64,000 nucleotides of DNA from NCBI GenBank assembly GCA_020849765.1, contig JADLAY010000017.1, positions 44,906-108,905 of the forward strand, in the 5' to 3' direction. Source of the DNA: Anaerolineae bacterium (GTDB lineage: Bacteria > Chloroflexota > Anaerolineae > Aggregatilineales > Phototrophicaceae). The notes beneath the pieces were generated by a model. That model ran no database searches. It was not told the DNA's origin and saw only the letters and a program-made list of their open reading frames with translations. Made by a program: the position numbers and the translations under genes. This document shows positions 2,330 to 56,530 of the stretch, in pieces (position 1 is the stretch's first letter; every line of letters begins with the position of its first letter).

Positions 2330-2415
2330 GATGGTTTCCTTGCTGGATATGACCGTAAAGATTACGACCTTCCCGATCTTAGACCGAAAATGCGCTGCCG
2401 CAAAGGACTTGTGAC

Positions 2416-5156: not shown

Positions 5157-5171
5157 CGCGCGCGATCCATC

Positions 5172-5293
5172 GCCAGGGACTCAAGCCCCTGGCTAGGGTT
5201 GCGCCCGGTGAACCGGGCTGCGATGGCCGACGCCACCCGAAAACTAGCCCCGTTTACGGGGCGCAGCCTCAGCCGGATGGTTAACCATCCGGC
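5172..5293 (-). promoter_or_regulatory. four consecutive perfect hairpins between the MerR gene 3' end and the GT39 gene 5' end
   Basis: GCCAGGG-ACTCAAGC-CCCTGGC, GCCCGG-TGAA-CCGGGC, GCCCCG-TTTA-CGGGGC, GCCGGATGG-TTAA-CCATCCGGC. Confidence 0.35.
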
Positions 5294-5335
5294 GGGCACC
5301 AGATCTGGCAACATCGTTCACTTTCGCTTCCCCAT

Positions 5336-6145
5336 TCATACCCGTTGCACCGGGAACTGCACCTCGGTTACGTAGGCATCCGGCGCGATACCCTCGGCGG
5401 GTCCGTGCAGATAGACCTCGCGGCTCGGCCCGGCGATCGGGTAGCCATTCTGCTCGATCCAGCGCATAACGGCGGTGTAGGCGGTGCCGATCGAGTCATA
5501 CTCGCCCTGGTAGATCGTCGTCACCATGTCCGCGCCGGGCAATGCGCGCACCTGGACGCGCCCGTCGCCCTCGCCGCCCACGATGGGCACGACGACCTCG
5601 ACGTCGCAGTCGGACTCGCGGTATTCGCCGTCGTGGAAGATCGCCATCAGCGGCCCGGTCGGCTGGATGCCGCGCGGCATCAGACTGCCGAACAGATCGC
5701 CGACGAGCTGGCCGGTGTGGCTGTAGGTCGGGATGGTGGCCCGCAGCGACGCTACCGTGAGCGACTCGACCGGCTTGAGCACGACTTCGTAGGCGGGCAG
5801 GTCGCCCTCGCGCTCGATCTGCTTGAGCCGCAGCATCAGTTGTTCCAGGCGCTGCTGCTCGGCGGCCATCTGCTGCTCGATCTCGGCGCGGCGCAGGCGG
5901 AACATGCCGCGCAGTTCGTCGGCGGAGATGTCCTCAGCGATCATCTGGCGGATCTGTTCCAGCGAGAAGCCGAGCGCCTTGAGCGCCAGAATGCGATTGA
6001 GGCGCGGCAGTTGATCTGCCGAGTAATAGCGATAGCCGGTCGCCGGGTCGACGCGCGCGGGCTGCAGCAGGCCCTCCTGATCGTAGAAACGAAGCGTCTT
6101 GACGGTGACCTGGCTCAACCTGGAGAATTCGCCGATTTTGAACAT
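5336..6145 (-). CDS. MerR-family transcriptional regulator with C-terminal GyrI-like effector-binding domain (BmrR/TipA-like)
   Basis: Internal start MFKIGEFSRLSQVTVKTLRFYDQEGLL (MerR HTH), coiled-coil linker, C-terminal GyrI-like domain. RBS AAGGACGAG upstream. The N-terminal extension of ORF 5336..6577 has no support. Confidence 0.85.
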   Translation of the reverse strand: MFKIGEFSRLSQVTVKTLRFYDQEGLLQPARVDPATGYRYYSADQLPRLNRILALKALGFSLEQIRQMIAEDISADELRGMFRLRRAEIEQQMAAEQQRLEQLMLRLKQIEREGDLPAYEVVLKPVESLTVASLRATIPTYSHTGQLVGDLFGSLMPRGIQPTGPLMAIFHDGEYRESDCDVEVVVPIVGGEGDGRVQVRALPGADMVTTIYQGEYDSIGTAYTAVMRWIEQNGYPIAGPSREVYLHGPAEGIAPDAYVTEVQFPVQRV

Positions 6146-6155
6146 GCACTCGTCC

Positions 6156-6186
6156 TTGACTCTCCCTTTAGGGGAGGGTGCATCAT
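6156..6186 (+). promoter_or_regulatory. MerR-type promoter/operator candidate (TTGAC, ~19-20 bp spacer containing dyad CTCCC-TTTAG-GGGAG, CATCAT)
   Basis: Lies in the 90-bp divergent region between the MerR gene and the GyrI-like gene. Confidence 0.4.
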
Positions 6187-6235
6187 GAGAGTAGTGTACG
6201 CCAGCATGCCCATCAGCACTACGCGGAGGAACGCG

Positions 6236-6859
6236 ATGCTCACCAAACTCGACCTCAAGAAAGATCTCAAACACCTGTACAACCCGTCGGCCAAGGACTT
6301 CAGCGTGGTCGAGGTGCCACCGCTGCGCTTCCTCATGATCGACGGCGCGGGCGATCCGAATACGTCGCCGGCCTACACGGATGCCGTCAGCGCATTGTTC
6401 GGCGTCGCTAACGCGATCAAGTTCGCCGTCAAGAAAGCGGGGCTGCTCGATTATGCCGTCATGCCGCTCGAAGGGTTGTGGTGGGCAGAGGATATGACGC
6501 AGTTCAGCACGGACGACAAATCGAACTGGCTGTGGACGGTCATGGTCGCCCAGCCGGAGGTCGTGAGCGAGGCGCACGTCGAGGCGGCACTGGCTGCGGT
6601 CAAACGCAAGGCGCCGTCACCCGCGCTGGATCGGGTGCGCTTCGAGATCTTCCACGAGGGGCTATCCGTCCAGATCATGCACATCGGCCCGTTCACGGCG
6701 GAAGGGCCGACCATCGCCCGCCTGCATGGCGAATTCATGCCCGCGCATGGCTACGTCGAAGCCGGGCAGCATCACGAGATCTATCTGACCGACGTCCGCC
6801 GCGCCGCGCCGGAGAAGTGGAAGACCGTCCTTCGTCAGCCGGTGCGCCCGCGCGGTTGA
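6236..6859 (+). CDS. GyrI-like small-molecule-binding domain protein
   Basis: Start MLTKLDLKKDLKHLYNP preceded by GGAGGAAcgcg-ATG. GyrI-like family fold signature (FLMIDGAGDPNTSPAY...). Transcribed divergently from the MerR gene. Confidence 0.7.
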   Translation: MLTKLDLKKDLKHLYNPSAKDFSVVEVPPLRFLMIDGAGDPNTSPAYTDAVSALFGVANAIKFAVKKAGLLDYAVMPLEGLWWAEDMTQFSTDDKSNWLWTVMVAQPEVVSEAHVEAALAAVKRKAPSPALDRVRFEIFHEGLSVQIMHIGPFTAEGPTIARLHGEFMPAHGYVEAGQHHEIYLTDVRRAAPEKWKTVLRQPVRPRG

Positions 6860-11326: not shown

Positions 11327-12199
11327 CTAACCCGATTCGTCGACGCCGTGGACGATGCCATCACGTTCGAACTCGATCCAGTAGTGATCGGCGAAGGCCG
11401 CCAGCGCGGGGATGCGCCCGATGCGATCGTCGAGCGCAGTGAGTACACGCAGCAACGGAGGGCGCCGCTCGATCACGCCATAGATGTCGCTCGGCGGCAG
11501 CCACAGGCCGAGCGGCTCGACGCGCGTCCGCCGGAACCACGGCGCGAAATCACGTGCCAACTTGCCGGGGGATGGGTAGAAGATGGCGGGGGCGGACAGG
11601 GCACGCCCTGTCCCTACAGGCAGGTCGTGATTTGTAGGGACGTCATGCTTGGCGTCCGCCGTCGTGCGCTTGCCTTCGAAGGTCGTCCCACCGCCCCAGC
11701 GCCGGAAAGCGACGTCGAATTCACCGTGCAGCGCATGCCAGCCGATCTCCCACAGGCACAGCGGCGGCATGACGCCGAAGGCCGCCCGCCCGCCCGGCGC
11801 CACGATCGTCGCCAGCCACGCCGCGAGAGGCTGCCAGCCGCTCAGGCAGTTGAGCACACCGAAGTTGGCGAAGACGAGATCGACCTTCTCCTCCGCCGGA
11901 TATGGATTCAAGTCGCTAAGGTCAAGATGTTCGACGCGCACGTTGGCATACCCGGCCAGCTTGGTGCGGGCGGCATCGAGCATCGCTTCGCTGGCGTCGG
12001 TCGCGATCACATGGACGCCGCGCCGGGCCAGATGCAGCGCATCCTCGCCCGTGCCGCAGCCGAGTTCGAGCGCCGTCTCGCCGGGCGCGATCAGCCGATC
12101 CAGCCGTGCGTGGACGCGTTCGCGCAGGTGACGCGCGATCGGCGAGTCCGTGAAGTCGGCGTCATAGGTCGGCGCGAGCGAGTCGAAAGCTGCAGGCAT
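11327..12199 (-). CDS. class I SAM-dependent methyltransferase
   Basis: SAM-binding motif ALELGCGTGEDA, DASEAML motif. Contains an in-frame copy of the 28-bp REP-like palindrome. Follows the radical SAM gene with a 6-bp gap. Confidence 0.85.
   Translation of the reverse strand: MPAAFDSLAPTYDADFTDSPIARHLRERVHARLDRLIAPGETALELGCGTGEDALHLARRGVHVIATDASEAMLDAARTKLAGYANVRVEHLDLSDLNPYPAEEKVDLVFANFGVLNCLSGWQPLAAWLATIVAPGGRAAFGVMPPLCLWEIGWHALHGEFDVAFRRWGGGTTFEGKRTTADAKHDVPTNHDLPVGTGRALSAPAIFYPSPGKLARDFAPWFRRTRVEPLGLWLPPSDIYGVIERRPPLLRVLTALDDRIGRIPALAAFADHYWIEFERDGIVHGVDESG
11591..11619. repeat. REP-like 28-bp palindrome (GCGGACAGGGCACGCCCTGTCCCTAC), copy in methyltransferase ORF
   Basis: Stem GGACAGGGC/GCCCTGTCC with ACG loop. 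28-bp identity with the 39079..39107 copy. Confidence 0.75.
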
Positions 12200-18329: not shown

Positions 18330-19367
18330 ATGGCATACGGCAATCGTATGAACTTCTACGGCCACACAAGCCTGATGGAAGGGTCGGTGAATATGAGTTT
18401 GGAGACATCTCACGTGCAGTTGGCGCAAGCGATGGCACATCTCGAAAAAGATGAAACAGCCGAAGCGTTGCGCTTGCTGAATGACCTGATTGAAAAGGTC
18501 GACCTCCTCGACGCGCATCGTTTGCGCTTCACCATCTTGATAAAACGAATCGACAATCCCCATGATCTACGCGCATCACTGGACGTGTTGCGAACGGAAG
18601 CCCCTGATATATACAGCGCCGGGTTGGTGGAACTCGAGACTCAAATTCACAATCGTTTGAGCGAATTGCAGGACGGGATTACCGAAGCCACGCAGCGTGC
18701 CGAGATGCAGTCGTACCTCGACGAATACGACGCACTTGTGGTGTTGAGCGACCTGTTCCCCGTCATTCAGGTTGCCCGTGGGCTGGGCTATATGGCCGCC
18801 GCTCGCATCAGGGACAAAAAGGGGCAACCGGGCACCGAATCCCCCTACGAACATCTGCGGAGATTGCTCGCTAAAGACATGGCGGTCCCTTTCATGCGCG
18901 AACGTAATGAAACGGACAGCGTCGACGATACACAGGCCGAAAGGTGGCGCATGACCGCAGAACAGGCACTGTCTGCGGCGCTGATTTCCTTAACGCCGAA
19001 TCATCCATCCGTTGTCGAGATCCATGAAGTCTTAGGGATGCTCTACGAGGGCATGCATGAATACAGCAAGGCACTGCGGTCCTTTCAGGCCGCAATAGAG
19101 CACGGCAGCAGCAACATGGAGGACAAGGTACACGAACTCACAACGAAGATCAAACAGGAAACAGAGCGTCTGGCACTGGAGCGAGTCGATTCACTCCTGG
19201 CGAACCAACACCTGGACGAAGCCGAAACCTGCCTGGCGGAGTATGCGCCAGATGCGTTGACCGATGCCTGGCACTTACGTTATGCGGAACTCGCATTGCT
19301 ACGTGGTGACCGCGAAACAGCAATGCATCACTACGCCCTCATCCTGCCCCTTGTCCACAACAAATGA
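18330..19367 (+). CDS. hypothetical alpha-helical protein (partner of the downstream P-loop ATPase)
   Basis: 345-aa ORF with no recognisable motif. 15-bp gap to the next gene. Region looks lower in GC than its flanks. True start may be an internal Met (e.g. MSLETSHV). Confidence 0.55.
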   Translation: MAYGNRMNFYGHTSLMEGSVNMSLETSHVQLAQAMAHLEKDETAEALRLLNDLIEKVDLLDAHRLRFTILIKRIDNPHDLRASLDVLRTEAPDIYSAGLVELETQIHNRLSELQDGITEATQRAEMQSYLDEYDALVVLSDLFPVIQVARGLGYMAAARIRDKKGQPGTESPYEHLRRLLAKDMAVPFMRERNETDSVDDTQAERWRMTAEQALSAALISLTPNHPSVVEIHEVLGMLYEGMHEYSKALRSFQAAIEHGSSNMEDKVHELTTKIKQETERLALERVDSLLANQHLDEAETCLAEYAPDALTDAWHLRYAELALLRGDRETAMHHYALILPLVHNK

Positions 19368-19382
19368 GCAAGGAGATACCTG

Positions 19383-22124
19383 ATGGACTGGAATGATCCT
19401 TTCGTTGTGAGTAAAGCCTACGCGAAACTCCGCTCCATCGATCCGCCTGTCAATGCCGGATCAGATGCGGCTGTCCTTCCTCACGTGGCATTCAACGTGC
19501 CCGCCGATGACGTCAGGCGCCGAGCGCTTGCGGGTGTGCTTCATCTTCATCGCCAGGGTCGCCAGCAGTTTGATTTTCTGCCGCACCTGGAGACAGCCCT
19601 CCTATATGGCGACTTCGATGAGGAGACCAAACGCACGCTGCGCGCTGAAATCCGGGCGATTGAACGCGAGCGCCAGCAAGCTGCTTTTGCGACGATTCGC
19701 AGACTCAAGCGGAAGAAACTGCATGTCCAACCGAAACGCCGTTCGACAACCCGCCAACCCGCATCGTTTGTGATGCAGGTGACCGACGATAGCTGCATCG
19801 TCCGCTTTGGCTACCGGCTCACTAACGTGCGCGCAGTGCGCTTTGACATGCCCGTCGAGGCGGAAGGCGCGGCGTTACTCAGAACGCTGACTCAGGCTGT
19901 TGAAATCTGGAAAGACCGCCTCAGCCTGGGCCTTGAAGCTGACTTTACCTGGCGCTATTCCAGCGAGGCTCACCGTGTGAATCTGGAGTTGCTGGTTGAG
20001 CTTCATTTGCCGGAACCTGAAATGGCGGAGGAAGTCGTTCGTGGCCTACAAACCATCATTGAAAACCAACAGCCATTTCCCGAAGTCTATCATTTTGCGC
20101 GAATCGTCGAAAGGAAGCATCTTAAGAATTTCTACGGCAGCACATCGTTTGCCAGCGTCGCGGAGATCGTGCGCCATGAAGGTGTGATGGAGTATGAAGG
20201 GAAGAACCTCTATGTGATCTTTCCGGTGAAGGTGGATAGCGACCGCTTACACGATCTCATGGTCTACCTGCGTAGCGCAACGGATGGCAACGTCATCGAC
20301 ATCAAGATACGCCCCTCTGCGGTGACGCGCTCAGAGATCGATGCCGCTCTCGAGGCTATCACCATTGGCGTGAGTTATTATGACGAGGACAGCGAAGAGA
20401 TTCGGCTGAAAATGTCGGAAGGCGCGATCTTTGACCATCAATGGCTGAAAGCGCTGGATGCTTACCGGATGATGCTTTCCCAGATCCACAGCCAGGCTTA
20501 CGAAGTGCGCCTGCGTGTTGCCAGCAAAACGGATATCGACATCTTGCCGCTCGCCACGTTGGCCGGGCGTTCGCTCCTTGGCCTGGGAGCCTTCGACGTG
20601 ATTCCGGCGGCCTATGGTGCTCGGTCAATCGCCCTTGACGATCTGTCACCTCGCACCCGCGCCCCGGCAGAACTATCTCGGTTGCGCCGCATGTGGTCGC
20701 TTGTCGAAACAGCTTTTGTCACCCGCCTGCCACGACCATCTGCGGCGGGCATACCGGGAATCCCAATGACCCAGGTTAAGCCCCACCGGATACCCTCCGG
20801 GCTGCCTGAAGAGGGCTGTGTACTTGGACAGGTCACATCACAGGGAGAAACCACACCCACCCTGGTAAAACTACCTTACGTCGACCGCACACGACATGTC
20901 TATGTCGTCGGCCGAACCGGCACCGGCAAAACGACCATGCTGCATAACATGGCGCTGCAAGACATCGAAAATGGGCATGGTGTTGGGGTGATCGACCCCC
21001 ATGGCGACTTGATCGATGCGTTGTTGGAGCGCATACCGCACCATAGAGCCGGGGATGTTGTCCTGTTTGACCCTGGGGATATCTCGCGCCCGGTGGGTTT
21101 GAATTTGCTCGACGTGGAGGGCCCCATTGCGCAGAATTTGGCTGTCGCCGATTTTATTGGCTTGATGTACAGCATGTACGATCCGGGCCACACCGGGATC
21201 GTCGGCCCTCGATTCGAGCAAAGCGTGCGCAACAGCATGTACACCGCGATGGCAATACCCGGTGCGACCATCATCGACGTGCTGCGCATTATTAGCGATA
21301 ACCGGTACAGTCACGACGTCCAGAAGTATCTCACCGATCCGATTGTCAAAGACTATTGGGAGAAGATATACGACAGCCAGAGTGACTTTCATCGCAGCGA
21401 AGTCAAAGACTACATCACCAGCAAGTTCAGCCGCTTCACATCCGATCGTATGGTGCGGCAGATTATCGGCCAATCCAAGACCAGTCTCAATTTCGCCGAC
21501 ATTTTCAACAACAAGAAGATTCTGCTCGTCAATCTGGCGAAAGGGCGTATCGGCGAGTTCAACAGCCAGTTCCTGGGCTTCATTCTCGTATCGCAATTGT
21601 TGATTGCCGCATTCCAACGTGTGAACCAGGCTGTTGATCTGCGTATCCCATACTATCTGTACATTGATGAGTTTCAGAACTTCGCCACACCCGGCCTGGG
21701 GGCCATGCTTTCGGAGGGGCGAAAATATGGACTGGCGCTCACGCTGGCGCATCAATTCATCCATCAGCTGGATGTCAAAATCCGTGAAGCGGTTTTCGGT
21801 AACGTAGGCACTATCTGCGCTTTCCAGGTTGGGTTGCAGGATGCAGAGTATCTGGCTCGCGAGATGTACCCCGTCTTTGGCACTGACGATCTGGTCAATT
21901 TGCCAGCATATCATGCCGCGTCCAAGATTTTGGCGCACAAACAGACCCTGATGCCGTTTGTGATGCAGACGCTGCCCGAACAGAATCAGCCGCGAAAGGA
22001 AGTTGCTGACGCCATCCGGACTTTCAGTGGCCTGACATATGGGAGTAACGCGGCTGTCGTCGAAGACAACATTCGCGCTCAATTCGCGCTGCCCCTACAG
22101 AAACGTATGGAGCTGCTGACCTGA
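19383..22124 (+). CDS. FtsK/HerA/TraG-superfamily P-loop NTPase with large N-terminal domain of unknown function
   Basis: Walker A VVGRTGTGKT at about aa 505, IDPHGDL, Walker B YLYIDEFQNF, then EGRKYGLALTLAHQ (arginine-finger/Q motif typical of the HerA/FtsK/VirD4 clade). No TM segment. First ~470 aa uncharacterised. Confidence 0.75.
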   Translation: MDWNDPFVVSKAYAKLRSIDPPVNAGSDAAVLPHVAFNVPADDVRRRALAGVLHLHRQGRQQFDFLPHLETALLYGDFDEETKRTLRAEIRAIERERQQAAFATIRRLKRKKLHVQPKRRSTTRQPASFVMQVTDDSCIVRFGYRLTNVRAVRFDMPVEAEGAALLRTLTQAVEIWKDRLSLGLEADFTWRYSSEAHRVNLELLVELHLPEPEMAEEVVRGLQTIIENQQPFPEVYHFARIVERKHLKNFYGSTSFASVAEIVRHEGVMEYEGKNLYVIFPVKVDSDRLHDLMVYLRSATDGNVIDIKIRPSAVTRSEIDAALEAITIGVSYYDEDSEEIRLKMSEGAIFDHQWLKALDAYRMMLSQIHSQAYEVRLRVASKTDIDILPLATLAGRSLLGLGAFDVIPAAYGARSIALDDLSPRTRAPAELSRLRRMWSLVETAFVTRLPRPSAAGIPGIPMTQVKPHRIPSGLPEEGCVLGQVTSQGETTPTLVKLPYVDRTRHVYVVGRTGTGKTTMLHNMALQDIENGHGVGVIDPHGDLIDALLERIPHHRAGDVVLFDPGDISRPVGLNLLDVEGPIAQNLAVADFIGLMYSMYDPGHTGIVGPRFEQSVRNSMYTAMAIPGATIIDVLRIISDNRYSHDVQKYLTDPIVKDYWEKIYDSQSDFHRSEVKDYITSKFSRFTSDRMVRQIIGQSKTSLNFADIFNNKKILLVNLAKGRIGEFNSQFLGFILVSQLLIAAFQRVNQAVDLRIPYYLYIDEFQNFATPGLGAMLSEGRKYGLALTLAHQFIHQLDVKIREAVFGNVGTICAFQVGLQDAEYLAREMYPVFGTDDLVNLPAYHAASKILAHKQTLMPFVMQTLPEQNQPRKEVADAIRTFSGLTYGSNAAVVEDNIRAQFALPLQKRMELLT

Positions 22125-28565: not shown

Positions 28566-30917
28566 TTGATGGTTCAGGAAATCACCTTCAGTCAATGGCT
28601 CAAGACGCGGCGCAAACTGTTGGATCTCACACAGCAGGCGCTGGCGGATCGCATCCACTGCTCGGTCGAGACGATCTTCAAGATCGAAGCCGGGCAGCGC
28701 CGCCCCTCACCGCAGATCGCGCGGCTGATCGCCGACGAGCTGAACATCCCGGCGCATGAGCAAGACGACTTCATCGGCTTCGCGCGCGCCGAAGCGCCAA
28801 CCCGCCTGCACAGCCACCGAGTCGAGTTCACGCCCTGGCGCGACGCCTTCATTCCCCAGCACAATCTGCCGCTGCAGTTCACGGCGTTGATCGGGCGCGA
28901 GCAGCACGCCCAGGAAGCGCTCGTGCGCCTGCGCGAGGAAGACGTGCGCCTGCTGACGATTCTGGGGCCGCCCGGCATCGGCAAAACCCGGCTCGCGATC
29001 CAACTGGGCAGCGACGCCCTGCTCGACTTCCCCGACGGCGTCACGTTCGTCGAGCTGGCCTCCGTCACCCAGCCTGACCGCGTGATCCCGGCCATCGCCC
29101 GCACGCTCGACATCTCGATTGCCGGTCACAAGAAGCCGCTCGAAAGCCTGCAAGCCTATCTCTACGAGCGGCACACACTGCTCATCCTCGACAACTTCGA
29201 GCAAATCCTGGACGCAGCGCCCGACGTGCATGCCCTGCTGGCCGCCTGCCCGCTGATCAAGGTGGTCGCCACCAGCCGCGCGCCGCTCCGTCTGCGCGGC
29301 GAACGGCAGTTCCCGTTACAACCGCTGGCGCTGCCCGCACGCATCAACGATCTGAATGTCCACGGGCTGGCAGGCTATGCGTCCATCCAGTTGTTCGTCG
29401 ACCGGGCACGAGCTGTACAGCCCGGCTTCGCGCTGAGCGCCGATAATGCCGCCGCGCTGGCTGCCATCTGCGCCCGGCTTGACGGCCTGCCGCTCGCCAT
29501 CGAGATCGTCGCGGCGCAGGTGGCCGTGCTGCAACCGGAGGAAATCCTCGATCATCTGACCGGGCGGCGACTGCTGCAAAGCCAGGGCATGGCCGATGCT
29601 GATCCGCGCCATCAAACACTGAACGCTGCCATCGACTGGAGCTATCGCCAGCTTCATGACGACGAGCAGGTCTTCTTCCGGCGTATGGGCATCTTCGTCG
29701 ATGGCTGTGCGCTCGAAGCCGCTCAGGCTGTCTGCCAGCCGGAGCAGGACATTGTCCAGGTGCTGTCCAAGCTCGTGAGCATGAATCTGCTCAAACGCGA
29801 AACGGGCGCGGGGGGCGCATCCCGCTACCAGATGCTGGATACACTGCGCGCCTTCGCCCGCCAGGAACTGCATGCGCAAGCTGAATGGGATCCGCTTCTA
29901 TCACGCCACGCCGCTTATTTCCACGACTTCGCCCTGGCGCAAGAGGCGAGCGTGCGCAGTCACGGTCAGGTCGACGGCCTGGAGCGCGTCGAGCGCGAGC
30001 ACAGCAATCTTCAGGCGGCGCTGGATTACTTCCTGGCGACAGGGGCATGGGCGCAAGGGCTGACGCTGGCCGGGGCGCTGATCGAGTTCTGGGTCTATCG
30101 CAACCACCTGCTCGTCGGCCTGGATTACGTTCGCGCGTTCCTGGATGCCACGGCGGGCGATCCAGCGCTGCACGCGAGCCGGGCGCGGCTGTTGAACGGC
30201 GCGGCTATCCTGGCCTATTTTGCCGGGGATTATGCCGCCATCGGCCCCTATGCCGAAGCGGCACTCGCGGCAGCACAATCGGCCAACAACCCGCGCGAGA
30301 TCGCCTGGGCCTGCGCCAACCTGGGCATGATGAGCGGCGGCATGCACGATTTCGCAGCGGCGATCCGGTTCTTCGAGCAGGGCATGGCTGCAGCTCAAGA
30401 AGCCGATCTCCCATGGGAGACGGGCAGCCTGCTCAACGGCCTGGGCGAAGTCGCGCGCAGCCAGCGGCGCTATGAGGAAGCGATGCGCTACTACCAGCGC
30501 GGGCTTGCCGATGCCCGAAAGCTGGGGAATCACTGGCTCGCGGCGCACATCCTCGACAACATTGCGCACGCTGCCTATGCCCAGGGGCAGTTCGAGGTCG
30601 CCGCCGCATACACGCGCCAGAGCCTGGAGGCGAGCATGATCCTGGGCGACGAACGCGGCATCGCCATGTGCCTGGAGAAGATGGGCGGGATCGCCATCGC
30701 CAGCGGCGCGCCCGAACGGGCAGCGCACCTCCTCGGCGCGGCGGAAGCCCTGCGCAAAGCCAAGAACGCGCCGGTCGAGGGCATGGATGCCGAGGATTAT
30801 CATCGCTTCGTGGCCGACGTGCGCCAACAGCTCGCCCCGGATGCGCTCGAAGCAGCCTGGCAGTTCGGGGGGCAAACGCCCCTGGCGCAGATCATCGATC
30901 AGGTGCTCAACGGCTGA
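28566..30917 (+). CDS. XRE-type HTH + NB-ARC/AAA (STAND) ATPase + TPR-repeat transcriptional regulator
   Basis: N-terminal HTH (LTQQALADRIHCSVETIFKIEAG), Walker A GPPGIGKT, hhhhD Walker B LLILDNFE, C-terminal TPR-like repeats. Confidence 0.8.
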   Translation: MMVQEITFSQWLKTRRKLLDLTQQALADRIHCSVETIFKIEAGQRRPSPQIARLIADELNIPAHEQDDFIGFARAEAPTRLHSHRVEFTPWRDAFIPQHNLPLQFTALIGREQHAQEALVRLREEDVRLLTILGPPGIGKTRLAIQLGSDALLDFPDGVTFVELASVTQPDRVIPAIARTLDISIAGHKKPLESLQAYLYERHTLLILDNFEQILDAAPDVHALLAACPLIKVVATSRAPLRLRGERQFPLQPLALPARINDLNVHGLAGYASIQLFVDRARAVQPGFALSADNAAALAAICARLDGLPLAIEIVAAQVAVLQPEEILDHLTGRRLLQSQGMADADPRHQTLNAAIDWSYRQLHDDEQVFFRRMGIFVDGCALEAAQAVCQPEQDIVQVLSKLVSMNLLKRETGAGGASRYQMLDTLRAFARQELHAQAEWDPLLSRHAAYFHDFALAQEASVRSHGQVDGLERVEREHSNLQAALDYFLATGAWAQGLTLAGALIEFWVYRNHLLVGLDYVRAFLDATAGDPALHASRARLLNGAAILAYFAGDYAAIGPYAEAALAAAQSANNPREIAWACANLGMMSGGMHDFAAAIRFFEQGMAAAQEADLPWETGSLLNGLGEVARSQRRYEEAMRYYQRGLADARKLGNHWLAAHILDNIAHAAYAQGQFEVAAAYTRQSLEASMILGDERGIAMCLEKMGGIAIASGAPERAAHLLGAAEALRKAKNAPVEGMDAEDYHRFVADVRQQLAPDALEAAWQFGGQTPLAQIIDQVLNG

Positions 30918-32970: not shown

Positions 32971-33291
32971 TCACCAGAACAGATCATCCTTCCGCTTTTG
33001 CTTCGAAACCCTCTTCCGTTCTCGCTTCGGCATCACAAATAGGTGCCAGATGATCGCTGTCAGGAGAAATCCGATCACCGGGCTGACCCCGCCCCCTTCC
33101 ATCCACCACAAGGTTTTTACAAACCCAAGACCTGGGAAAACATCGCGAGGATCGAGATCGGCCAGAAACTGCTGCCACGAGAGTTCAATCGCCAGGTATA
33201 TGATTGCGCCAACCACGAGTGTCGATATCACAAACAAGACGCCGAATTGCACATGCCGGGCAGTTTTGCGCTTTGGATCGTGATCGAACAT
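32971..33291 (-). CDS. small membrane protein (hypothetical)
   Basis: 106 aa, two TM helices, basic C-terminus. Weak RBS. Confidence 0.5.
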   Translation of the reverse strand: MFDHDPKRKTARHVQFGVLFVISTLVVGAIIYLAIELSWQQFLADLDPRDVFPGLGFVKTLWWMEGGGVSPVIGFLLTAIIWHLFVMPKRERKRVSKQKRKDDLFW

Positions 33292-33648
33292 GGGCCGGTG
33301 ACCTCTCGAACGCGGTCAAGAGCCTGCTTGATAAGGTATATACAGCCTCGGCCTCGGATATTCCCAGTCGACGCCGGGCGTAGGGATTTGGCGACGCCAA
33401 ATCCTCCACGTGAATCCCTGGCCTGCGACTATTTTCTGGCGGGGCCGGGGTGTGCCGCGTTATACTGCGCACATCTATCTGTAATCGCAATTCAAGAGCG
33501 CCCACGCGCCTCCGTCGCAGACAGATCATCGATCGGCTGGATGGTTCTAAGCGCGCTGATGGCGCAGAGTCCATCAACGAAAATGGACGGCATAGTTTAC
33601 AGATAGCGATACAGAATTATGCCTTTAAAGGAGGCGGTCTTGACTTAC

Positions 33649-37010: not shown

Positions 37011-37119
37011 GCGAACGTATCTGCGTTCATCTGACCACGTGTTGTCGAATATTTGCATCGTCGACTTACGAAATAGATAATAAACGTGGTGTACTTATTA
37101 GGAGTTCTTTCAAACCACA

Positions 37120-38775
37120 ATGCCTAGTGCATTCATCTCTTATCGCCGCGTCGAAAGCGCTGCCCTTGCCACGCTGATCGCCGTCACCTTGCAAGACAAG
37201 CATGGCATTGAAGTTTTCGTCGATACCCGCAGTACCGACGGTGGTGGCCTGTTTCCTGACCGCTTGCGCCGCGCCATTGAACATTGCGACGTATTCGTTT
37301 GCCTGCTTGGCGCGACGACGCTGGAATCCGCCTGGGTGATGGAAGAGATCGAACATGCGCATAACTTGCGCAAGACGATGATCCCGGTCTTCCAGGAACG
37401 TTACGTTCCGCCCAACCCAATTCCCAGCGTACACGTCGAAGCACTGCTGCAATCGGATGGATTGCAGGTTCTTGATGTGCGCAACGTGTACGTCGATCAA
37501 GCTATCTCCGACTTGGCGTCAATGATCAGAAGATCCGTCGGTGCTCCAATGCCGCCGCCCAGGCGAGGCATCGGGTTACCTCTGATTGCCGCAGTCTTGG
37601 TGTTGCTCGCGTTAGTCGCCCTTGGCATCTTCCTGGTGTCTCGCGCCATGGAATCCCCCACTTCAACAGCCAGTCCGACACAGATCGCGGGTGGTGTGAC
37701 CGCCAGCACCACCATCGAGCAACCCACCGCTGCACCGACAGAAGATGCGGCTGGCACACGGGTCGCCCAATTGCAGGCCAGCCTGACCGCCTTGGCGCAA
37801 CTTCAAATCGTAGGGGAAGAAACCGCGACGGCGGACGCCGCAACGCGTGGTGCTGCTGCACAAATCGATGCGACTTTGCGGGCAGCCGCGGACACCGCGA
37901 CCGCGGCTGCCCTCGCTATCACGCAATCCGTATTGGGTGAAACGGCGACTCAGCAAGCCATTGACGCGACCGCGATAGCTAGTGTATCGACAGATACTCC
38001 CACCCCATCCGCGACACCTACGCCTATCACACTGGAATATGCTTACGCCCAGGCAGTAAATTATGATGATGGTCAGGGAAATACGGCATGGACGCCTATT
38101 GCATATACGTTTGGGGATGGCGTGACGATGGTTCTAGTACCGACGGGCTGCTTTTTGATGGGTAGCAGCGAAGGTAATATTAACGAACAGCCCATCAATG
38201 AGCAGTGCTTTGTCGTGCCATTCTGGATCGACCAGACTGAAGTGACACAGGCCGATTTTGTACGTCTGAGTGGACAAAAGGCGGCCCCGAATGAATTTCC
38301 TGCTGACCAACACCCCGTTGAGAATATCACTTGGTTCGAAGCACGTAATTTCTGCGTGTTGCGGGGTGCGCGCTTGCCAACAGAGCGCGAATGGGAATAT
38401 GCAGCCCGCGGCCCTGAAGGATGGATCTACCCATGGGGAAACATGTGGGACACGAGCTATGCTGCATGGAACCGGAGTAGATCGCAAAGAACCGCCATCG
38501 TGGGAACAGCATCAAATGGGGTTTCCTGGGTCGGTGCACAGGATATGAGCGGCAACGTCTGGGAGTGGGCGAGCTCCCTTTACCAGCCGTACCCCTATGC
38601 GGCAGACGATGGACGAGAGGGGGATATGAGAGACCTTGCGGATGCTCAACGTGTGTTGAGAGGCGGTTCTTGGTACTACGTCAGTACTATTGGCCTACGC
38701 GCGCCTACGCGCAGCGGACTCGACCCAATAGCCAAAGACAATCTATTAGGTTTCCGTTGCGCCCGCGATGTCTGA
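37120..38775 (+). CDS. TIR domain - TM helix - Thr/Ala-rich linker - FGE-sulfatase (SUMF1-like) domain fusion protein
   Basis: N-terminus SAFISYRRVES and SAWVMEEIEHA (TIR alphaC SxW..E motif with the conserved Glu). One TM (LPLIAAVLVLLALVALGIFLV). C-terminal FGE-sulfatase signatures GNVWEWASS, RGGSWYY, GFRCARD. AT-rich promoter region 37010-37120. Confidence 0.8.
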   Translation: MPSAFISYRRVESAALATLIAVTLQDKHGIEVFVDTRSTDGGGLFPDRLRRAIEHCDVFVCLLGATTLESAWVMEEIEHAHNLRKTMIPVFQERYVPPNPIPSVHVEALLQSDGLQVLDVRNVYVDQAISDLASMIRRSVGAPMPPPRRGIGLPLIAAVLVLLALVALGIFLVSRAMESPTSTASPTQIAGGVTASTTIEQPTAAPTEDAAGTRVAQLQASLTALAQLQIVGEETATADAATRGAAAQIDATLRAAADTATAAALAITQSVLGETATQQAIDATAIASVSTDTPTPSATPTPITLEYAYAQAVNYDDGQGNTAWTPIAYTFGDGVTMVLVPTGCFLMGSSEGNINEQPINEQCFVVPFWIDQTEVTQADFVRLSGQKAAPNEFPADQHPVENITWFEARNFCVLRGARLPTEREWEYAARGPEGWIYPWGNMWDTSYAAWNRSRSQRTAIVGTASNGVSWVGAQDMSGNVWEWASSLYQPYPYAADDGREGDMRDLADAQRVLRGGSWYYVSTIGLRAPTRSGLDPIAKDNLLGFRCARDV

Positions 38776-39313
38776 TTGCGACCACACTTACCCCCAGCGC
38801 AAATCGCCTCGTCTCCGCGACTATGATTACGCACAATCCGGTGCATATTTCGTCACCATCTGTACCTATCGACGTGAGCATCTCTTTGGCGAGGTCGTCG
38901 ATCAACAGATGCATCTGTCGCGGATGGGATCGATTGCTCATGACCTGTGGTACACCATCCCCGATCATCATTCGCAGGTCGAACTCGATGCGTTCGTCGT
39001 CATGCCCAACCATGTCCACGGCATCATCGTTGTAGGGACGCCGCGTGCGGCGTCCGGCGGCGAGAATGATGGGCGATCGGCGGACAGGGCACGCCCTGTC
39101 CCTACGGAATCGCTCGGAGCGATCATCGGTGCGTACAAGTCCGCCGTGACACGCACCGTCAATCAGGCGATGAGGTTGGTCGCGCCGACGGTCTGGCAGA
39201 CGCGCTATGACCATCACATCATTCGCAGCGAGCACGATCTAGACCGCATCCGCGCCTACGTCGCCGACAACTCCGCGCGATGGCTGGATGACACGCTGTT
39301 CACAAAAGGATAG
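38768..39313 (+). mobile_element. REP-associated tyrosine transposase (RAYT, IS200/IS605-like Y1 HUH transposase)
   Basis: HUH motif NHVHGIIVV and catalytic Tyr context RYDHHIIRS. Start ATG overlaps the TIR-FGE stop (ATGTCTGA). Contains an in-frame copy of the 28-bp REP-like palindrome. Confidence 0.8.
39079..39107. repeat. REP-like 28-bp palindrome, copy inside the RAYT ORF
   Basis: Identical core to 11591..11619. Encodes SADRARPVPT in-frame. Confidence 0.75.
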
Positions 39314-54637: not shown

Positions 54638-55633
54638 TCAATGGCCACGGAGCCGCGGATGCGACGAAACATAAATAATTCGTGGCGGCTCTTGAAGTTT
54701 TGGCTTGATAATGTATCGATCAAGCTTATCAAGATAGTCAGGGCGCCGATAGATAAATGCAGATGTGAATGTCTGCCAGAATATGCGCGCTTCTGGCCGT
54801 GTCTTAGGGACTTCGTAGCCAAGTTTTGCCGCAAGATCCGGCAGATAAATGTCAAACGCCGCTTTAGCGAATTCGCCCCAGCTGATGGCGGCGGCGGTAG
54901 CTCGTTGCACCGCGAATACGGCGAACACAATCACAACAGGGATTATCCCAACAACCTCAACTCGTTTCTGCACCAATACGAGTACAACGTATTCCAGGAT
55001 AATCAGGACACTGATAAACCAGAAATTAAGCCACATGTTGGTCTTTGTCTGAGCTGTATCCAATTCTGTACGAAAATCCGCAGGAATTACAGATAACAGC
55101 CGCGGCCAACCCTCAATGCCTTCCAGGCCATACATGACACGTGAATAAACCTCAAAAGCCCGTATTGCGTTTCCAAAAGCGGTTGGCAGAATCCACTCCT
55201 CAGCGTCTGGAAACTCCTGAGCTTTCTTCTGTTGAAGTCGACTCCAATAGTCTTCAGCAGCTTCGCGCTCGGGAGTTCCTTCCTTCAGATTCCATGCCTT
55301 TTCACGCGCTGCCTCGACGTCCTTCTGAAGTTGTCTATAGCGGTTCAATTCCAGGGCCAGAAAGTAGTGGAATGGATTCCCCTTCTTCCCGTAACCCTCT
55401 AACAGTCGATACACGCCCAGATTGACCGCGTTCAACACAACCCCTGTGGCCCAAGACAGAAAGCCAAACAAGACGGTTTCTGCGAGAGGCGTCTGACCGG
55501 TAAGTAATGCAGGGAAAGTTATGACGCCGAAGCTTTGCAGGAGATATGCCGTTATGATCAGCAACGCGGCTGACGGGAGCACAAATCCTGTGGCGAAATT
55601 GCGATCAAGCAGTTTCGTGAGCTCACTAAACAT
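54638..55633 (-). CDS. 4-TM membrane protein (candidate effector partner of the upstream TIR protein)
   Basis: 331 aa. TM1-2 at aa ~15-75, ~120-aa coiled-coil/charged cytoplasmic region, TM3-4 at aa ~200-250. Region looks about 50% GC. 11-bp gap to the TIR gene. Confidence 0.6.
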   Translation of the reverse strand: MFSELTKLLDRNFATGFVLPSAALLIITAYLLQSFGVITFPALLTGQTPLAETVLFGFLSWATGVVLNAVNLGVYRLLEGYGKKGNPFHYFLALELNRYRQLQKDVEAAREKAWNLKEGTPEREAAEDYWSRLQQKKAQEFPDAEEWILPTAFGNAIRAFEVYSRVMYGLEGIEGWPRLLSVIPADFRTELDTAQTKTNMWLNFWFISVLIILEYVVLVLVQKRVEVVGIIPVVIVFAVFAVQRATAAAISWGEFAKAAFDIYLPDLAAKLGYEVPKTRPEARIFWQTFTSAFIYRRPDYLDKLDRYIIKPKLQEPPRIIYVSSHPRLRGH

Positions 55634-55644
55634 GGATGCCTCCT

Positions 55645-56118
55645 CTATTCGTCAGCGGCAGCAGTGGCTGGAGGCGGCGGCGGAGGCGGGTCAAGTGGCA
55701 GAGGTGAGGTTCCCTTGCCGGGAAAGAGAGCAAGACCAGGAAATGATCGACGCATCAGACCGTCCATGTAGTCAGTCATGTCGCGAAGGGTGCCAGGTAC
55801 GTCAGTCTCAAGGCGTTTCGCTGCGACTTCATCAATGCCTTCATCGAGTTGGATGGTGAGATAATACGTCGGCTTTTCGAGTGTGCGAGCGATTTCAATC
55901 TCACGTTGAACTTGTTCGGATTGAGTGGAACCATCTTTGATTACGACGATCACTGCATCACTATCCGCGATATAGTCATGAACGTAATTCGCCCAGTATT
56001 CACCAGGACGTATTTCCGCACTCCTGTTGGTTTCTATGCCGTTGAGATCGAGCCTATCCGCAATTCTACGGCTCAGATCGTCATCATCAGATGTGTGGGA
56101 TACGAATATCTTCGGCAT
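55645..56118 (-). CDS. TIR-domain protein (TIR_2/ThsB-like, 157 aa) with Pro-rich tail
   Basis: Start MPKIFVSHTSDDDD after GGGAGGTG. Motifs IFVSH, GEYW, SDAVIVVI, STQSEQVQREIEIA (conserved Glu). Low-GC region. Confidence 0.7.
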   Translation of the reverse strand: MPKIFVSHTSDDDDLSRRIADRLDLNGIETNRSAEIRPGEYWANYVHDYIADSDAVIVVIKDGSTQSEQVQREIEIARTLEKPTYYLTIQLDEGIDEVAAKRLETDVPGTLRDMTDYMDGLMRRSFPGLALFPGKGTSPLPLDPPPPPPPATAAADE

Positions 56119-56530
56119 ATCACACCTCCCTGACCTACGTGCCAGCAACTGACTATGATTAACCCAACCATATTGATCTCAAGCATATTATATGGTGAAT
56201 TGAGAAATATAGCCGAATAACGATCTGCAAGCAGAGTGTGGCGTGACATGCCTAAAGCCTTTGAGCGGTATCACGGTTCATAATCGTATCTCGTTCTTCT
56301 CAAGTTAATTTCATATCTCACCGCTATCGGCGCGAAGATGAATAGACAGGGTTAACAGGTCGGCGTGGATTCGGCTTTTGGGAACGCCCGCCCATAAAAT
56401 GGGACGGGCTACGGAATCGCCCTCTCCGAGGGCTATATCAACAGCGATCTCATCAGGAAGCCTTCGTAGGAGACGCCTGCTTAGACAGGGGATTTCATTC
56501 CCTGGCGACGAAACTCCGCAACAAAAAGAG

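What the first reader, a model, noticed from the sequence alone, without database searches (positions are those of the whole stretch)
37120..38775. Receptor-like TIR-TM-FGE-sulfatase-domain fusion protein
Single polypeptide with a cytoplasmic N-terminal TIR domain (FISYRR start, SAWVMEEI alphaC motif with the conserved Glu). It is followed by one TM helix, a 150-aa Thr/Ala/Pro-rich linker predicted to be extracytoplasmic, and a C-terminal FGE-sulfatase/SUMF1-like domain (GNVWEWASS, RGGSWYY, GFRCARD). In bacterial Ser/Thr kinases the FGE-sulfatase domain acts as an extracytoplasmic sensor module. Here it is wired to a TIR signalling/NADase domain instead, an inverted Toll-like-receptor-style topology that I do not recognise as a described architecture. 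The gene lies in a lower-GC patch with an AT-rich promoter and is translationally overlapped by a RAYT transposase gene, suggesting mobility.
Basis: partly seen in the sequence, partly recalled or inferred. Interest (0 to 1): 0.7.

Follow-up and report, generated by a model that had tools for sequence, protein, structure and literature searches.

The report
Membrane-spanning bacterial TIR receptor-like protein
This gene encodes a single-pass membrane protein with a SARM1-like TIR (NAD-cleaving type) domain inside the cell and a non-catalytic lectin-fold (FGE-type) binding domain outside; it belongs to a widespread but experimentally untouched family of Chloroflexota proteins that look like bacterial counterparts of Toll-like receptors.

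Summary
ORF 37120..38775 (+, 551 aa) has a TIR_2 domain (aa 5-121, 58.5 bits), one hydrophobic helix (aa ~152-176), a low-complexity Ala/Thr-rich linker and an FGE-sulfatase domain (aa 336-549, 143.9 bits). Family data support TIR-in/FGE-out. All 71 TIR+FGE homologues examined have exactly one hydrophobic segment; K+R averages 3.56 on the TIR side and 0.46 on the FGE side. A probable disulfide pair (C412/C547) is kept in 61/64 TM forms but 3/8 TM-less forms. The TIR is SARM1-like, with the catalytic-position Glu (E76) invariant. The FGE domain lacks the FGE Cys pair and any EgtB iron-binding domain, so it is most likely a binding module; its variability concentrates at aa 517-543. The architecture is not unique: it is common in Chloroflexota MAGs, and this protein is GenBank MCC6613108.1. 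The same TIR+TM chassis carries SH3_3, beta-propeller and other ectodomains, and also occurs in the Toll-like-receptor orientation. FGE/CLec sensors paired with TIR effectors are published for cytoplasmic, NTPase-linked systems. I found no description of the single-pass version. The mobility argument fails: the overlap and low GC3 are real, but no homologue examined has a neighbouring RAYT. Best reading: an outside-in receptor whose ligand-driven clustering activates a TIR NADase (inferred).

The parts
37120..38775 (+). Complete gene for the TIR-TM-linker-FGE protein (551 aa; GenBank MCC6613108.1)
   Evidence: ORF list; Pfam; exact match in NCBI nr
37120..37539 (+). Cytoplasmic SARM1-like TIR domain (aa 1-140)
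   Evidence: TIR_2 58.5 bits; the best solved relative is the SARM1 TIR, E=4.6e-8; AF2 pLDDT about 90-97 with a flavodoxin-like beta/alpha pattern
37327..37350 (+). alphaC motif S70-A-W-V-M-E-E-I77; E76 (37345-37347) aligns with SARM1 catalytic Glu in WVHKEI
   Evidence: Alignment to SARM1 TIR; S70 and E76 invariant and W72 >=90% in 58 family members; E76 >=90% in 148 TIR-subfamily representatives
37573..37647 (+). Single transmembrane helix (aa ~152-176), N-in/C-out
   Evidence: KD peak 3.26; AF2 helix 153-176; in the family, K+R is 3.56 on the TIR side and 0.46 on the FGE side, with more on the TIR side in 67/71
37648..38019 (+). Low-complexity Ala/Thr/Gln-rich extracytoplasmic linker (aa 177-300); length and sequence not conserved in the family (PT-rich in most relatives)
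   Evidence: Composition; pLDDT 33-73, disordered 177-208, then low-confidence helices 210-235 and 240-287; 48% gaps in the A1 alignment
38020..38772 (+). Extracytoplasmic FGE-sulfatase / C-type-lectin-like module (aa 301-551; Pfam match aa 336-549 plus a conserved N-terminal extension with invariant W324)
   Evidence: PF03781 143.9 bits; PDB sequence hits pFGE, CalU17, EgtB, FGE, PorK, TvpA; Foldseek; pLDDT >90; conservation
38668..38748 (+). Family-hypervariable segment of the FGE domain (aa 517-543). It replaces the Cu-binding Cys loop of true FGEs and (from memory of Mtd/TvpA) corresponds to the variable region of DGR CLec targets; likely ligand-contact surface
   Evidence: Mean column entropy 2.74 against 1.37 for aa 336-500; alignment to S. 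coelicolor FGE, GGSYLCHDSYCNRYR against GGSWYYVSTI--GLR
38353..38355 (+). Cys412 codon, inferred disulfide partner of Cys547 (38758-38760)
   Evidence: Both Cys present in 61/64 TM forms against 3/8 TM-less TIR-FGE proteins (Fisher p=2e-4); lost together in the 3 exceptions; ER-luminal pFGE has both, cytoplasmic EgtB has neither
38758..38760 (+). Cys547 codon (GFRC motif), inferred disulfide partner of Cys412
38768..39313 (+). Downstream RAYT-like Y1 (HUH) transposase ORF, 181 aa, overlapping the stop of the TIR gene by 8 nt (GenBank MCC6613109.1); adjacent but not part of the receptor
   Evidence: overlap; Pfam Y1_Tnp 30.7 bits, NCBIfam REP_Tyr_transpos 53.2 bits (below 80); absent next to homologues
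37052..37081 (+). Only sigma-70-like promoter match upstream (TTTGCA-18-GATAAT), weak
   Evidence: 1 found against 1.4 expected in shuffles, so not evidence on its own

Best explanation
The gene encodes a type-II (N-in, C-out) single-pass membrane protein. The extracytoplasmic FGE-fold domain has lost the formylglycine-generating chemistry and most likely serves as a lectin-like binding module with a family-variable pocket. The cytoplasmic domain is a SARM1-type TIR with an intact catalytic-position Glu. Proposed mechanism (inferred): binding of a multivalent or surface-associated ligand outside the membrane (a phage or foreign cell-surface component, or a cell-envelope fragment) clusters the ectodomains. 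This brings the juxtamembrane TIR domains together. TIR self-association then switches on NAD+ cleavage, giving NAD+ depletion and growth arrest or death of that cell, or nucleotide signals for unlinked effectors. Shown: domains, fold, single TM, topology indicators, conservation of the catalytic motif, loss of FGE catalytic residues, modular reuse of the TIR+TM chassis. Inferred: ligand binding, activation by clustering, NADase output, biological role.
For: Domains and fold. Topology has four independent indicators. (i) Exactly one hydrophobic segment in 71/71 TIR+FGE homologues, and K+R of 3.56 (TIR side) against 0.46 (FGE side). (ii) The C412/C547 pair is kept in 61/64 TM forms against 3/8 soluble forms and is lost pairwise. 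(iii) FGE-only relatives carry N-terminal signal/anchor segments, and kinase relatives are Pkinase-TM-FGE. (iv) In 12 relatives of opposite orientation (ectodomain-TM-TIR), K+R is 0.42 on the ectodomain side and 5.17 on the TIR side. So the TIR is cytoplasmic in both orientations. Enzyme competence of the TIR: the closest solved structure is the SARM1 NADase TIR; FISYRR is identical; E76 aligns with the SARM1 catalytic Glu; S70 and E76 are invariant and W72, F5, S7, Y8, R10 are >=90% conserved. Non-catalytic FGE: the Cys pair is absent; the egtB model scores 88 bits against a 360 cut-off and matches only the C-terminal part. Sensor behaviour: variability is focused on aa 517-543. The same TIR+TM module is fused to other binding ectodomains (SH3_3 in 10/34, PD40/WD40 propellers, CARDB, PBP_like_2). 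Published proposals treat FGS/CLec as invader sensors and TIR as effectors.
Against: There is no experimental datum for any member. No ligand is known. There is no conserved partner gene and no clear defence-island context in the window or in most homologue loci, so an immune role is not supported by guilt-by-association. PADLOC and NCBIfam TIR hits are domain-level only. TM-less TIR-FGE fusions exist in Acidobacteriota and Methylococcaceae, so the FGE domain can also work in the cytoplasm. Topology rests on hydropathy, charge and Cys statistics, not on a dedicated predictor or an experiment. FGE-fold proteins without the Cys pair can still be enzymes (PvdO; my recollection of its role).
Confidence: 0.5

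Rival explanations
1. Same receptor architecture, but the role is not anti-phage. It monitors the organism's own cell envelope, sheath or neighbouring cells in filamentous Chloroflexota, and triggers localised cell death or filament breakage (developmental or damage-induced programmed cell death, or kin recognition).
For: The alternative ectodomains on the same TIR+TM chassis are typical cell-wall or envelope binders (SH3_3 in 10/34, PD40 propellers, CARDB; a LysM-containing member P0090). The gene sits among housekeeping genes, not in a defence island. The family is concentrated in Anaerolineae, Aggregatilineales and Phototrophicaceae. Kaur et al. link FGS systems to multicellular bacteria.
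Against: Hypervariability focused on one surface of the FGE domain, 1-3 FGE copies per protein even at syntenic loci (P0021 against P0079), and a probable second copy in the same MAG (P0017, unverified) look more like an arms race than recognition of an invariant self structure.
Confidence: 0.22
2. The TIR domain is a signal generator or scaffold, not a killer. On activation it makes cADPR-isomer-type nucleotides, or recruits other TIR or STAND proteins encoded elsewhere (Thoeris-like or TLR/MyD88-like logic).
For: There are domain-level hits to ThsB models (PADLOC PDLC00434 E=5e-11; NCBIfam Thoeris type III ThcB4 E=1e-13; Pfam ThsB_TIR 21.3 bits). STAND genes lie within 5-6 kb in this window (HTH-NB-ARC-TPR, 28566-30917) and at two syntenic homologue loci (DUF4062-NB-ARC-TPR).
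Against: No ThsA-type (SIR2/SLOG/Macro) gene lies next to this gene or to any of the 7 homologue neighbourhoods. The TIR is closest to SARM1, a stand-alone NAD+ consumer. The STAND genes are not adjacent and are not conserved across loci.
Confidence: 0.15
3. The FGE-fold domain is an extracytoplasmic enzyme (a PvdO-like or other oxidative maturation activity). The TIR is a cytoplasmic regulatory or anchoring module, so the information flow is inside-out or there is none.
For: FGE-fold proteins lacking the Cys pair include proteins deposited as biosynthetic components (PvdO, CalU17, ToxD appear among the structural and sequence matches). PGAP names the protein a 'nonheme iron enzyme'.
Against: There is no DinB-type iron-binding domain and no Cys pair. 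The most variable part of the domain is the pocket where catalytic residues would sit, which is unusual for an enzyme family. The FGE module is interchangeable with non-enzymatic binding domains on the same chassis. The TIR catalytic motif is under the strongest constraint.
Confidence: 0.08
4. The gene is cargo of a mobile element driven by the overlapping RAYT.
For: 8-nt overlap with a Y1-transposase-like ORF. Both genes have low GC3 (0.583 and 0.692, against a median of 0.823).
Against: No homologue examined has a RAYT or other transposase adjacent. No flanking direct or inverted repeats delimit a unit. There is no second copy in the window. From general knowledge, RAYTs act on REP hairpins, not on neighbouring genes.
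Confidence: 0.04

Closest known systems
FGS/CLec-sensor conflict systems with TIR effectors (Kaur, Burroughs, Iyer, Aravind 2020 and 2021, eLife; Dore et al. 2024 PNAS; Vallota-Eastman et al. 2020)
   Same: A C-terminal FGE-sulfatase (C-type-lectin-fold) domain proposed as the recognition module, with the 'strict syntax' of all other domains lying N-terminal to it. TIR is among the fused or linked effectors. Enriched in multicellular or filamentous bacteria.
   Different: Published cases are built around NTPases (vWA-MoxR, STAND/NACHT) and are often DGR-diversified and mostly cytoplasmic. Here there is no NTPase, no DGR reverse transcriptase or template repeat in the window or in 7 homologue neighbourhoods, and a single TM helix puts sensor and effector on opposite sides of the membrane. 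'TIR+TM+FGS' is absent from the 2021 supplement.
SARM1 TIR domain (animal NAD+ hydrolase)
   Same: It is the best-matching solved structure (E=4.6e-8). It has an identical FISYRR box, and W-x-x-x-E with E76 at the catalytic Glu position. A 2026 preprint places SARM1's TIR inside a bacterial clade (PMC13142454).
   Different: SARM1 is regulated by ARM and SAM domains and NMN/NAD+ sensing in the cytosol. Here regulation would come through a TM helix from an ectodomain. Activity is untested.
Toll-like receptors / IL-1 receptors
   Same: A single-pass membrane protein with an extracellular ligand-binding domain and a cytoplasmic TIR. Signalling by receptor clustering is the natural model.
   Different: The orientation is inverted (TIR N-terminal, type II). 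The ectodomain is FGE-fold, not LRR or Ig. The TIR is of the enzymatic SARM1-like type, not the scaffold type. There is no evidence of adaptor proteins. Relatives in the true TLR orientation (signal/anchor-ectodomain-TM-TIR) do exist in the same TIR subfamily.
Bacterial Ser/Thr kinases and metacaspases fused to FGE-sulfatase domains
   Same: The same C-terminal FGE module follows a TM segment and is used as the presumed sensory part (Pkinase-TM-FGEx2: P0013, P0103). Metacaspase-FGE, including a version with TM helices between the domains, is described in PMC3501461.
   Different: The output domain is a TIR in place of a kinase or caspase.
Thoeris ThsB
   Same: A TIR domain with a conserved Glu, and weak to moderate profile matches to ThsB models.
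   Different: No ThsA partner. The matches cover only the TIR core. ThsB proteins are soluble cytoplasmic sensors.

Membership tests
TIR domain superfamily (Pfam TIR_2, PF13676) | Profile match above the curated threshold | tested here: met
   58.5 bits against 28; PF01582 27.2 against 21.3
TIR domain superfamily (enzymatic NADase class) | Catalytic Glu in alphaC, preceded by the conserved Trp (W-x-x-x-E) | tested here: met
   E76 aligns with the Glu of SARM1 WVHKEI; invariant in 58 homologues
TIR domain superfamily (enzymatic NADase class) | NAD+ cleavage activity | not testable with these tools
   Needs a biochemical assay
FGE-sulfatase domain family (PF03781 / C-type-lectin-like fold) | Profile match above threshold and the FGE fold | tested here: met
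   143.9 bits against 23.3; Foldseek probability 1.00 to CalU17, pFGE, PvdO, FGE, TvpA
Formylglycine-generating enzyme proper (SUMF1/FGE) | Copper-binding catalytic Cys pair (C-x4-C loop after RGGS) | tested here: not met
   S. coelicolor FGE GGSYLCHDSYCNRYR against GGSWYYVSTI--GLR; no conserved Cys there in the family consensus
EgtB/OvoA/SenA sulfoxide synthases ('nonheme iron enzyme', the PGAP name) | N-terminal DinB-like domain carrying the iron-binding His triad; full-length model match | tested here: not met
   TIGR03440 88.2 bits against cut-off 360, matching only model positions 272-413; SenA 81.4 against 420; no DinB hit in Pfam
Thoeris (ThsB sensor) | Adjacent ThsA effector gene (SIR2/SLOG/Macro/TM) | tested here: not met
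   None in the window neighbourhood or in homologue loci L001-L006 and L087-L090
DGR variable protein (CLec target) | Template repeat matching the C-terminal variable region, and a nearby reverse transcriptase | tested here: not met
   No repeat of the gene's 3' region anywhere in the 64-kb window; no RVT gene in 7 homologue neighbourhoods; a remote DGR elsewhere in the genome cannot be excluded
NTPase-centred FGS conflict systems (Kaur et al.) | STAND / vWA-MoxR NTPase fused to or adjacent to the FGS protein | tested here: not met
   No NTPase domain in the protein; the nearest STAND-like gene is 6 kb away (28566-30917) and is not conserved across loci
Single-pass membrane receptor (type II, N-in/C-out) | One TM helix, positive-inside charge bias, extracytoplasmic features on the C-terminal side | tested here: met
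   no dedicated topology predictor or experiment was available
RAYT (REP-associated tyrosine transposase), downstream ORF | Match to the RAYT model above cut-off, and flanking REP hairpins | tested here: inconclusive
   NCBIfam NF047646 53.2 bits against 80; Pfam Y1_Tnp 30.7 against 23; no flanking REP pairs found, but a hairpin inside the ORF recurs at 11.6 kb

The most novel reading that the evidence does not exclude
Chloroflexota (and some other bacteria) possess a whole class of true 'outside-in' TIR receptors. These are single-pass proteins, in both type-I (TLR-like) and type-II orientations, that couple interchangeable extracytoplasmic recognition domains (FGE/CLec, SH3, beta-propeller, PPC/VWA and others) across the membrane to a SARM1-like NADase. 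On this reading, a bacterial cell can sense a threat or a neighbour at its surface, before anything enters the cytoplasm, and respond by NAD+ depletion. It would be a prokaryotic functional counterpart, and possibly an evolutionary source pool, of Toll-like-receptor and SARM1 logic.
Probability: 0.35. Interest if true: 0.75.

Novelty: new variant of a known kind. Interest (0 to 1): 0.5.

Why it matters
The bacterial TIR immune systems I know of (Thoeris, CBASS/Pycsar effectors, SPARTA, Avs/STAND fusions) sense events inside the cell. A TIR NADase wired through one TM helix to an external lectin-fold domain would be surface-level sensing with an abortive or signalling output. It would give a simple one-protein model for how clustering across a membrane activates an enzymatic TIR, which is the step shared with TLR and SARM1 biology. 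The family is large, modular and concentrated in filamentous Chloroflexota, so it also bears on the proposed link between multicellularity and apoptosis-like immunity. [quoted passage not shown]

Tried and rejected
(1) DGR target: I searched the 64-kb window for a template repeat of the gene (blastn word 7) and for TIR or FGE paralogues (tblastn). There were none, and no RT appeared in homologue loci. Rejected for the window; a remote DGR cannot be excluded.

(2) Conserved operon partner: ten loci representing 7 distinct neighbourhoods were inspected. Nothing is shared except synteny between L004 and L089. Two look-ups (P0001, P0017) were not on record.

(3) Defence-island context: Pfam and PADLOC scans of about 15 flanking genes gave only generic hits.

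(4) Genome-wide taxonomic scan with the family alignment: it was seeded only by FGE motifs, so it returned FGE domains from many phyla and not the fusion. It was salvaged by scanning the loci for upstream TIRs, which revealed TM-less fusions in Acidobacteriota and Methylococcaceae.

(5) Word-indexed search with TIR+TM alone: only 10 mostly truncated hits, uninformative. It was replaced by the exhaustive representative search.

(7) Promoter and terminator scan: no signal above shuffles.

(8) REP search around the RAYT: no flanking REP pairs.

(9) Literature probes for an explicit description of prokaryotic single-pass TIR receptors: none found in the held library, which does not cover most subscription journals.
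Full report
**1. What is there**

The ORF 37120..38775 (+) is real and encodes 551 aa. Pfam assigns TIR_2 to aa 5-121 (58.5 bits, cut-off 28) and FGE-sulfatase to aa 336-549 (143.9 bits, cut-off 23.3). A single strongly hydrophobic stretch lies at aa ~152-176 (Kyte-Doolittle peak 3.26). It is followed by a 160-aa Ala (24%) / Thr (18%) rich low-complexity region.

An AlphaFold2 model built on 58 homologues (mean pLDDT 83.5) shows:
- a confident TIR fold at aa 1-140;
- a helix at aa 153-176;
- a disordered or low-confidence helical linker at aa 177-300;
- a confident FGE fold at aa 301-551, which includes a conserved N-terminal extension.

Foldseek against the PDB returns CalU17, pFGE, PvdO, bacterial and human FGE, and TvpA.

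**2. Topology**

No dedicated TM predictor was available, so I used family-level tests.

- Of the 120 best database hits, 71 carry both TIR and FGE. All 71 have exactly one hydrophobic segment, placed directly after the TIR.
- The 15 residues flanking it carry on average 3.56 Lys+Arg on the TIR side and 0.46 on the FGE side. The TIR side has more in 67 of 71.
- FGE-only relatives start with a signal or anchor segment, and kinase relatives are Pkinase-TM-FGE.
- Two cysteines, C412 and C547, are both present in 61 of 64 TM-containing proteins but in only 3 of 8 TM-less TIR-FGE proteins (Fisher p=2e-4). In the three TM-containing exceptions they are lost together. From memory, they correspond to the structural disulfide C218-C365 of ER-luminal human FGE. 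In the alignments they are present in pFGE and absent in cytoplasmic EgtB.
- In 12 relatives with the opposite domain order (signal/anchor-ectodomain-TM-TIR), the charge bias flips with the TIR: 0.42 on the ectodomain side and 5.17 on the TIR side.

Together these support TIR-in, FGE-out.

**3. State of the two domains**

The nearest solved structure to the TIR is the SARM1 NADase TIR (E=4.6e-8). The FISYRR box is identical, and E76 aligns with the Glu of SARM1 'WVHKEI'. From memory, that Glu is the catalytic E642. S70 and E76 are invariant, and W72, F5, S7, Y8 and R10 are at least 90% conserved in 58 family members. E76 is at least 90% conserved in 148 subfamily representatives. So the TIR looks catalytically competent.

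The FGE domain lacks the copper-binding Cys pair of true FGEs (GGSYLCHDSYCNRYR against GGSWYYVSTI--GLR). There is no DinB-type iron domain: the EgtB model scores 88 bits against 360 and matches only its C-terminal part. [quoted passage not shown]

Across the family, the FGE core is conserved (mean column entropy 1.37 for aa 336-500). The segment aa 517-543 is highly variable (2.74). This is the loop that carries the catalytic Cys pair in FGE. From memory of the Mtd and TvpA structures, it also corresponds to the variable region in DGR CLec targets. That pattern fits a binding module with diversified specificity.

**4. How common, and how modular**

The protein is GenBank MCC6613108.1 from an Anaerolineae MAG. 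P0017 (MCC6612482.1), another TIR-TM-FGE protein, has a nearby accession number and is probably from the same MAG; I did not verify this. Named relatives are Anaerolineae, Aggregatilineales, Phototrophicaceae and 'Chloroflexi bacterium'. Members carry one to three FGE copies. The syntenic loci L004 and L089 differ in copy number (P0021 has one, P0079 has two).

An exhaustive phmmer search with the TIR alone found 3,331 50%-identity representatives at E<=1e-3 and 111 at E<=1e-30. The best 148 split as follows:

| Class | Count |
|---|---|
| N-TIR / TM / FGE | 22 (plus 5 without a TM) |
| N-TIR / TM / other C-terminal region >150 aa | 34 |
| C-terminal TIR preceded by a TM | 24 |
| C-terminal TIR without a TM | 34 |
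| N-TIR / no TM / other | 13 |
| Short or truncated | 16 |

- The 'other' ectodomains include SH3_3 (10 of 34), PD40/WD40-type propellers, CARDB and PBP_like_2.
- The TM-then-TIR class includes Pkinase-FHA-2TM-TIR (8 proteins) and signal-PPC/VWA-TM-TIR proteins.
- Outside Chloroflexota (Bryobacteraceae L011, Methylococcaceae L033), the TIR-FGE fusion exists without a TM.
- Pairwise identities of the TIR and FGE parts are uncorrelated (r=0.01). This hints at module shuffling, though the sample was selected by FGE similarity.

**5. Context**

No partner gene is conserved. Ten loci (7 distinct neighbourhoods) show unrelated housekeeping genes, with no reverse transcriptase, no ThsA-like gene and no RAYT. 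The exceptions are:
- an E2-CBASS/ThiF cluster directly downstream in L087;
- a DUF4062-NB-ARC-TPR gene about 5 kb away in the syntenic L004 and L089.

In the window the neighbours, in order, are: aldo/keto reductase, a CxxCxxCC protein, a response-regulator/sigma70-r4-like protein, a hexapeptide acetyltransferase, the gene and RAYT, L-serine dehydratase, TetR, MMPL and a PAS histidine kinase. An HTH-NB-ARC-TPR gene lies 6 kb upstream. There is no template repeat or paralogue in the window.

**6. The mobility argument**

The 8-nt overlap with ORF 38768..39313 is real. That ORF is a Y1/HUH transposase of RAYT type: it passes Pfam and is below the NCBIfam cut-off. Both genes have low GC3 (0.583 and 0.692, against a median of 0.823), which is compatible with a foreign origin. 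But nothing delimits a mobile unit and no homologue has a RAYT neighbour. From general knowledge, RAYTs move REP hairpins, not adjacent genes. I treat the adjacency as incidental.

**7. Literature**

- Kaur et al. 2020 and 2021 describe the 'FGS' domain as a lectin-fold sensor or neutraliser in NTPase-centred conflict systems. Other domains always lie N-terminal to it, and TIR is among the effectors.
- Dore et al. 2024 and Vallota-Eastman et al. 2020 list TIR among N-terminal domains of DGR-diversified CLec proteins, with some TM-containing or secreted targets.
- Asplund-Samuelsson et al. 2012 describe metacaspase-FGE proteins, including a version with two TM helices between the domains.
- The supplement of the 2021 paper has 94 'TIR+FGS' strings (the passages shown were inside vWA proteins) and 'TIR+TM+NACHT+7xTM+FGS' in Chloroflexi, but no 'TIR+TM+FGS'.
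- A 2026 preprint places SARM1's TIR within a bacterial clade.
- I found no paper describing or testing single-pass TIR-TM-ectodomain proteins. The library lacks most subscription journals, so this is absence in what I could search.

**8. Interpretation and verdict**

The best-supported reading is an outside-in receptor. A non-catalytic, specificity-diversified lectin-fold ectodomain binds an extracytoplasmic ligand. Clustering brings the juxtamembrane SARM1-like TIRs together and switches on NAD+ cleavage. Architecture and topology are well supported (about 0.9). The activation mechanism and biological role are inferred (overall 0.5).

The rivals are self-envelope or filament surveillance (0.22), signal or scaffold output (0.15), an enzymatic ectodomain (0.08) and RAYT cargo (0.04).

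It is a new variant of a known kind. The components and the sensor-effector idea are known, and the family is abundant in databases. The trans-membrane coupling, and the existence of a modular TIR+TM chassis in both orientations, appear to be undescribed and untested. Interest 0.5.

Noticed in passing
window 39079-39105 and 11591-11617: An exact 27-bp repeat containing a perfect hairpin (GGACAGGG-CACG-CCCTGTCC; 0.02 matches expected by chance) occurs inside two unrelated coding sequences. One is the central, poorly conserved insert of the RAYT ORF (read as ADRARPVPT). The other is a methyltransferase-like ORF, 11327..12199 on the minus strand (read as VGTGRALSA). Further GGAC...GTCC hairpins lie next to both copies (for example 39036-39055). 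It looks like REP-like palindromes tolerated in-frame within genes.
   Followed up: partly
proteins P0137, P0155, P0164, P0165, P0189, P0199, P0258: Bacterial proteins with the true Toll-like-receptor orientation carry the same SARM1-like TIR subfamily: N-terminal signal/anchor, ectodomain (PPC, VWA or unassigned), TM helix, then a C-terminal TIR 7-60 residues after the helix. Lys+Arg is strongly biased to the TIR side (5.17 against 0.42).
   Followed up: partly
proteins P0142, P0170, P0175, P0207, P0213, P0215, P0223, P0259: A recurrent ~1000-aa architecture, Pkinase + FHA + two adjacent TM helices + C-terminal SARM1-like TIR (8 representatives). It is another membrane-associated use of this TIR.
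   Followed up: no
L011 (Bryobacteraceae MAG) 3567-6410; L033 (Methylococcaceae MAG) 2337-3515: TM-less TIR-FGE fusions, in tandem copies in L011. They show that the same two-domain pairing also works entirely in the cytoplasm in other phyla.
   Followed up: partly
L087 9743-14334 (Phototrophicaceae contig): Directly downstream of a TIR-TM-FGE homologue lies a cluster with a CBASS-type E2 (PF26395), a ThiF E1-like gene, a methyltransferase and a NUDIX hydrolase. It may be a ubiquitin-like conjugation defence module. It is the only defence-like adjacency seen.
   Followed up: no
window 28566-30917 (+); L004 14628-17291 and L089 15015-17678 (-): STAND-type genes lie within 5-6 kb of the TIR-TM-FGE gene in three loci: HTH-NB-ARC-TPR in the window, and DUF4062-NB-ARC-TPR in two syntenic homologue loci. 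They are not adjacent and not of the same type, so this is possibly coincidence.
   Followed up: no
window 18330-22124, 54638-56148, 33043-33606: Several other genes in the window have markedly low GC3 (0.48-0.65, against a median of 0.82), so the TIR gene is not the only compositionally atypical gene here. The 19383-22124 ORF (913 aa) and the pair at 54.6-56.1 kb were not annotated.
   Followed up: no
alignment A1 (58 TIR-TM-FGE proteins): Pairwise identities of the TIR and FGE portions are uncorrelated (r=0.01, with mean identities of 0.51 and 0.53). This suggests recombination or shuffling between the two modules within the family, though the sample was selected on FGE similarity.
   Followed up: no
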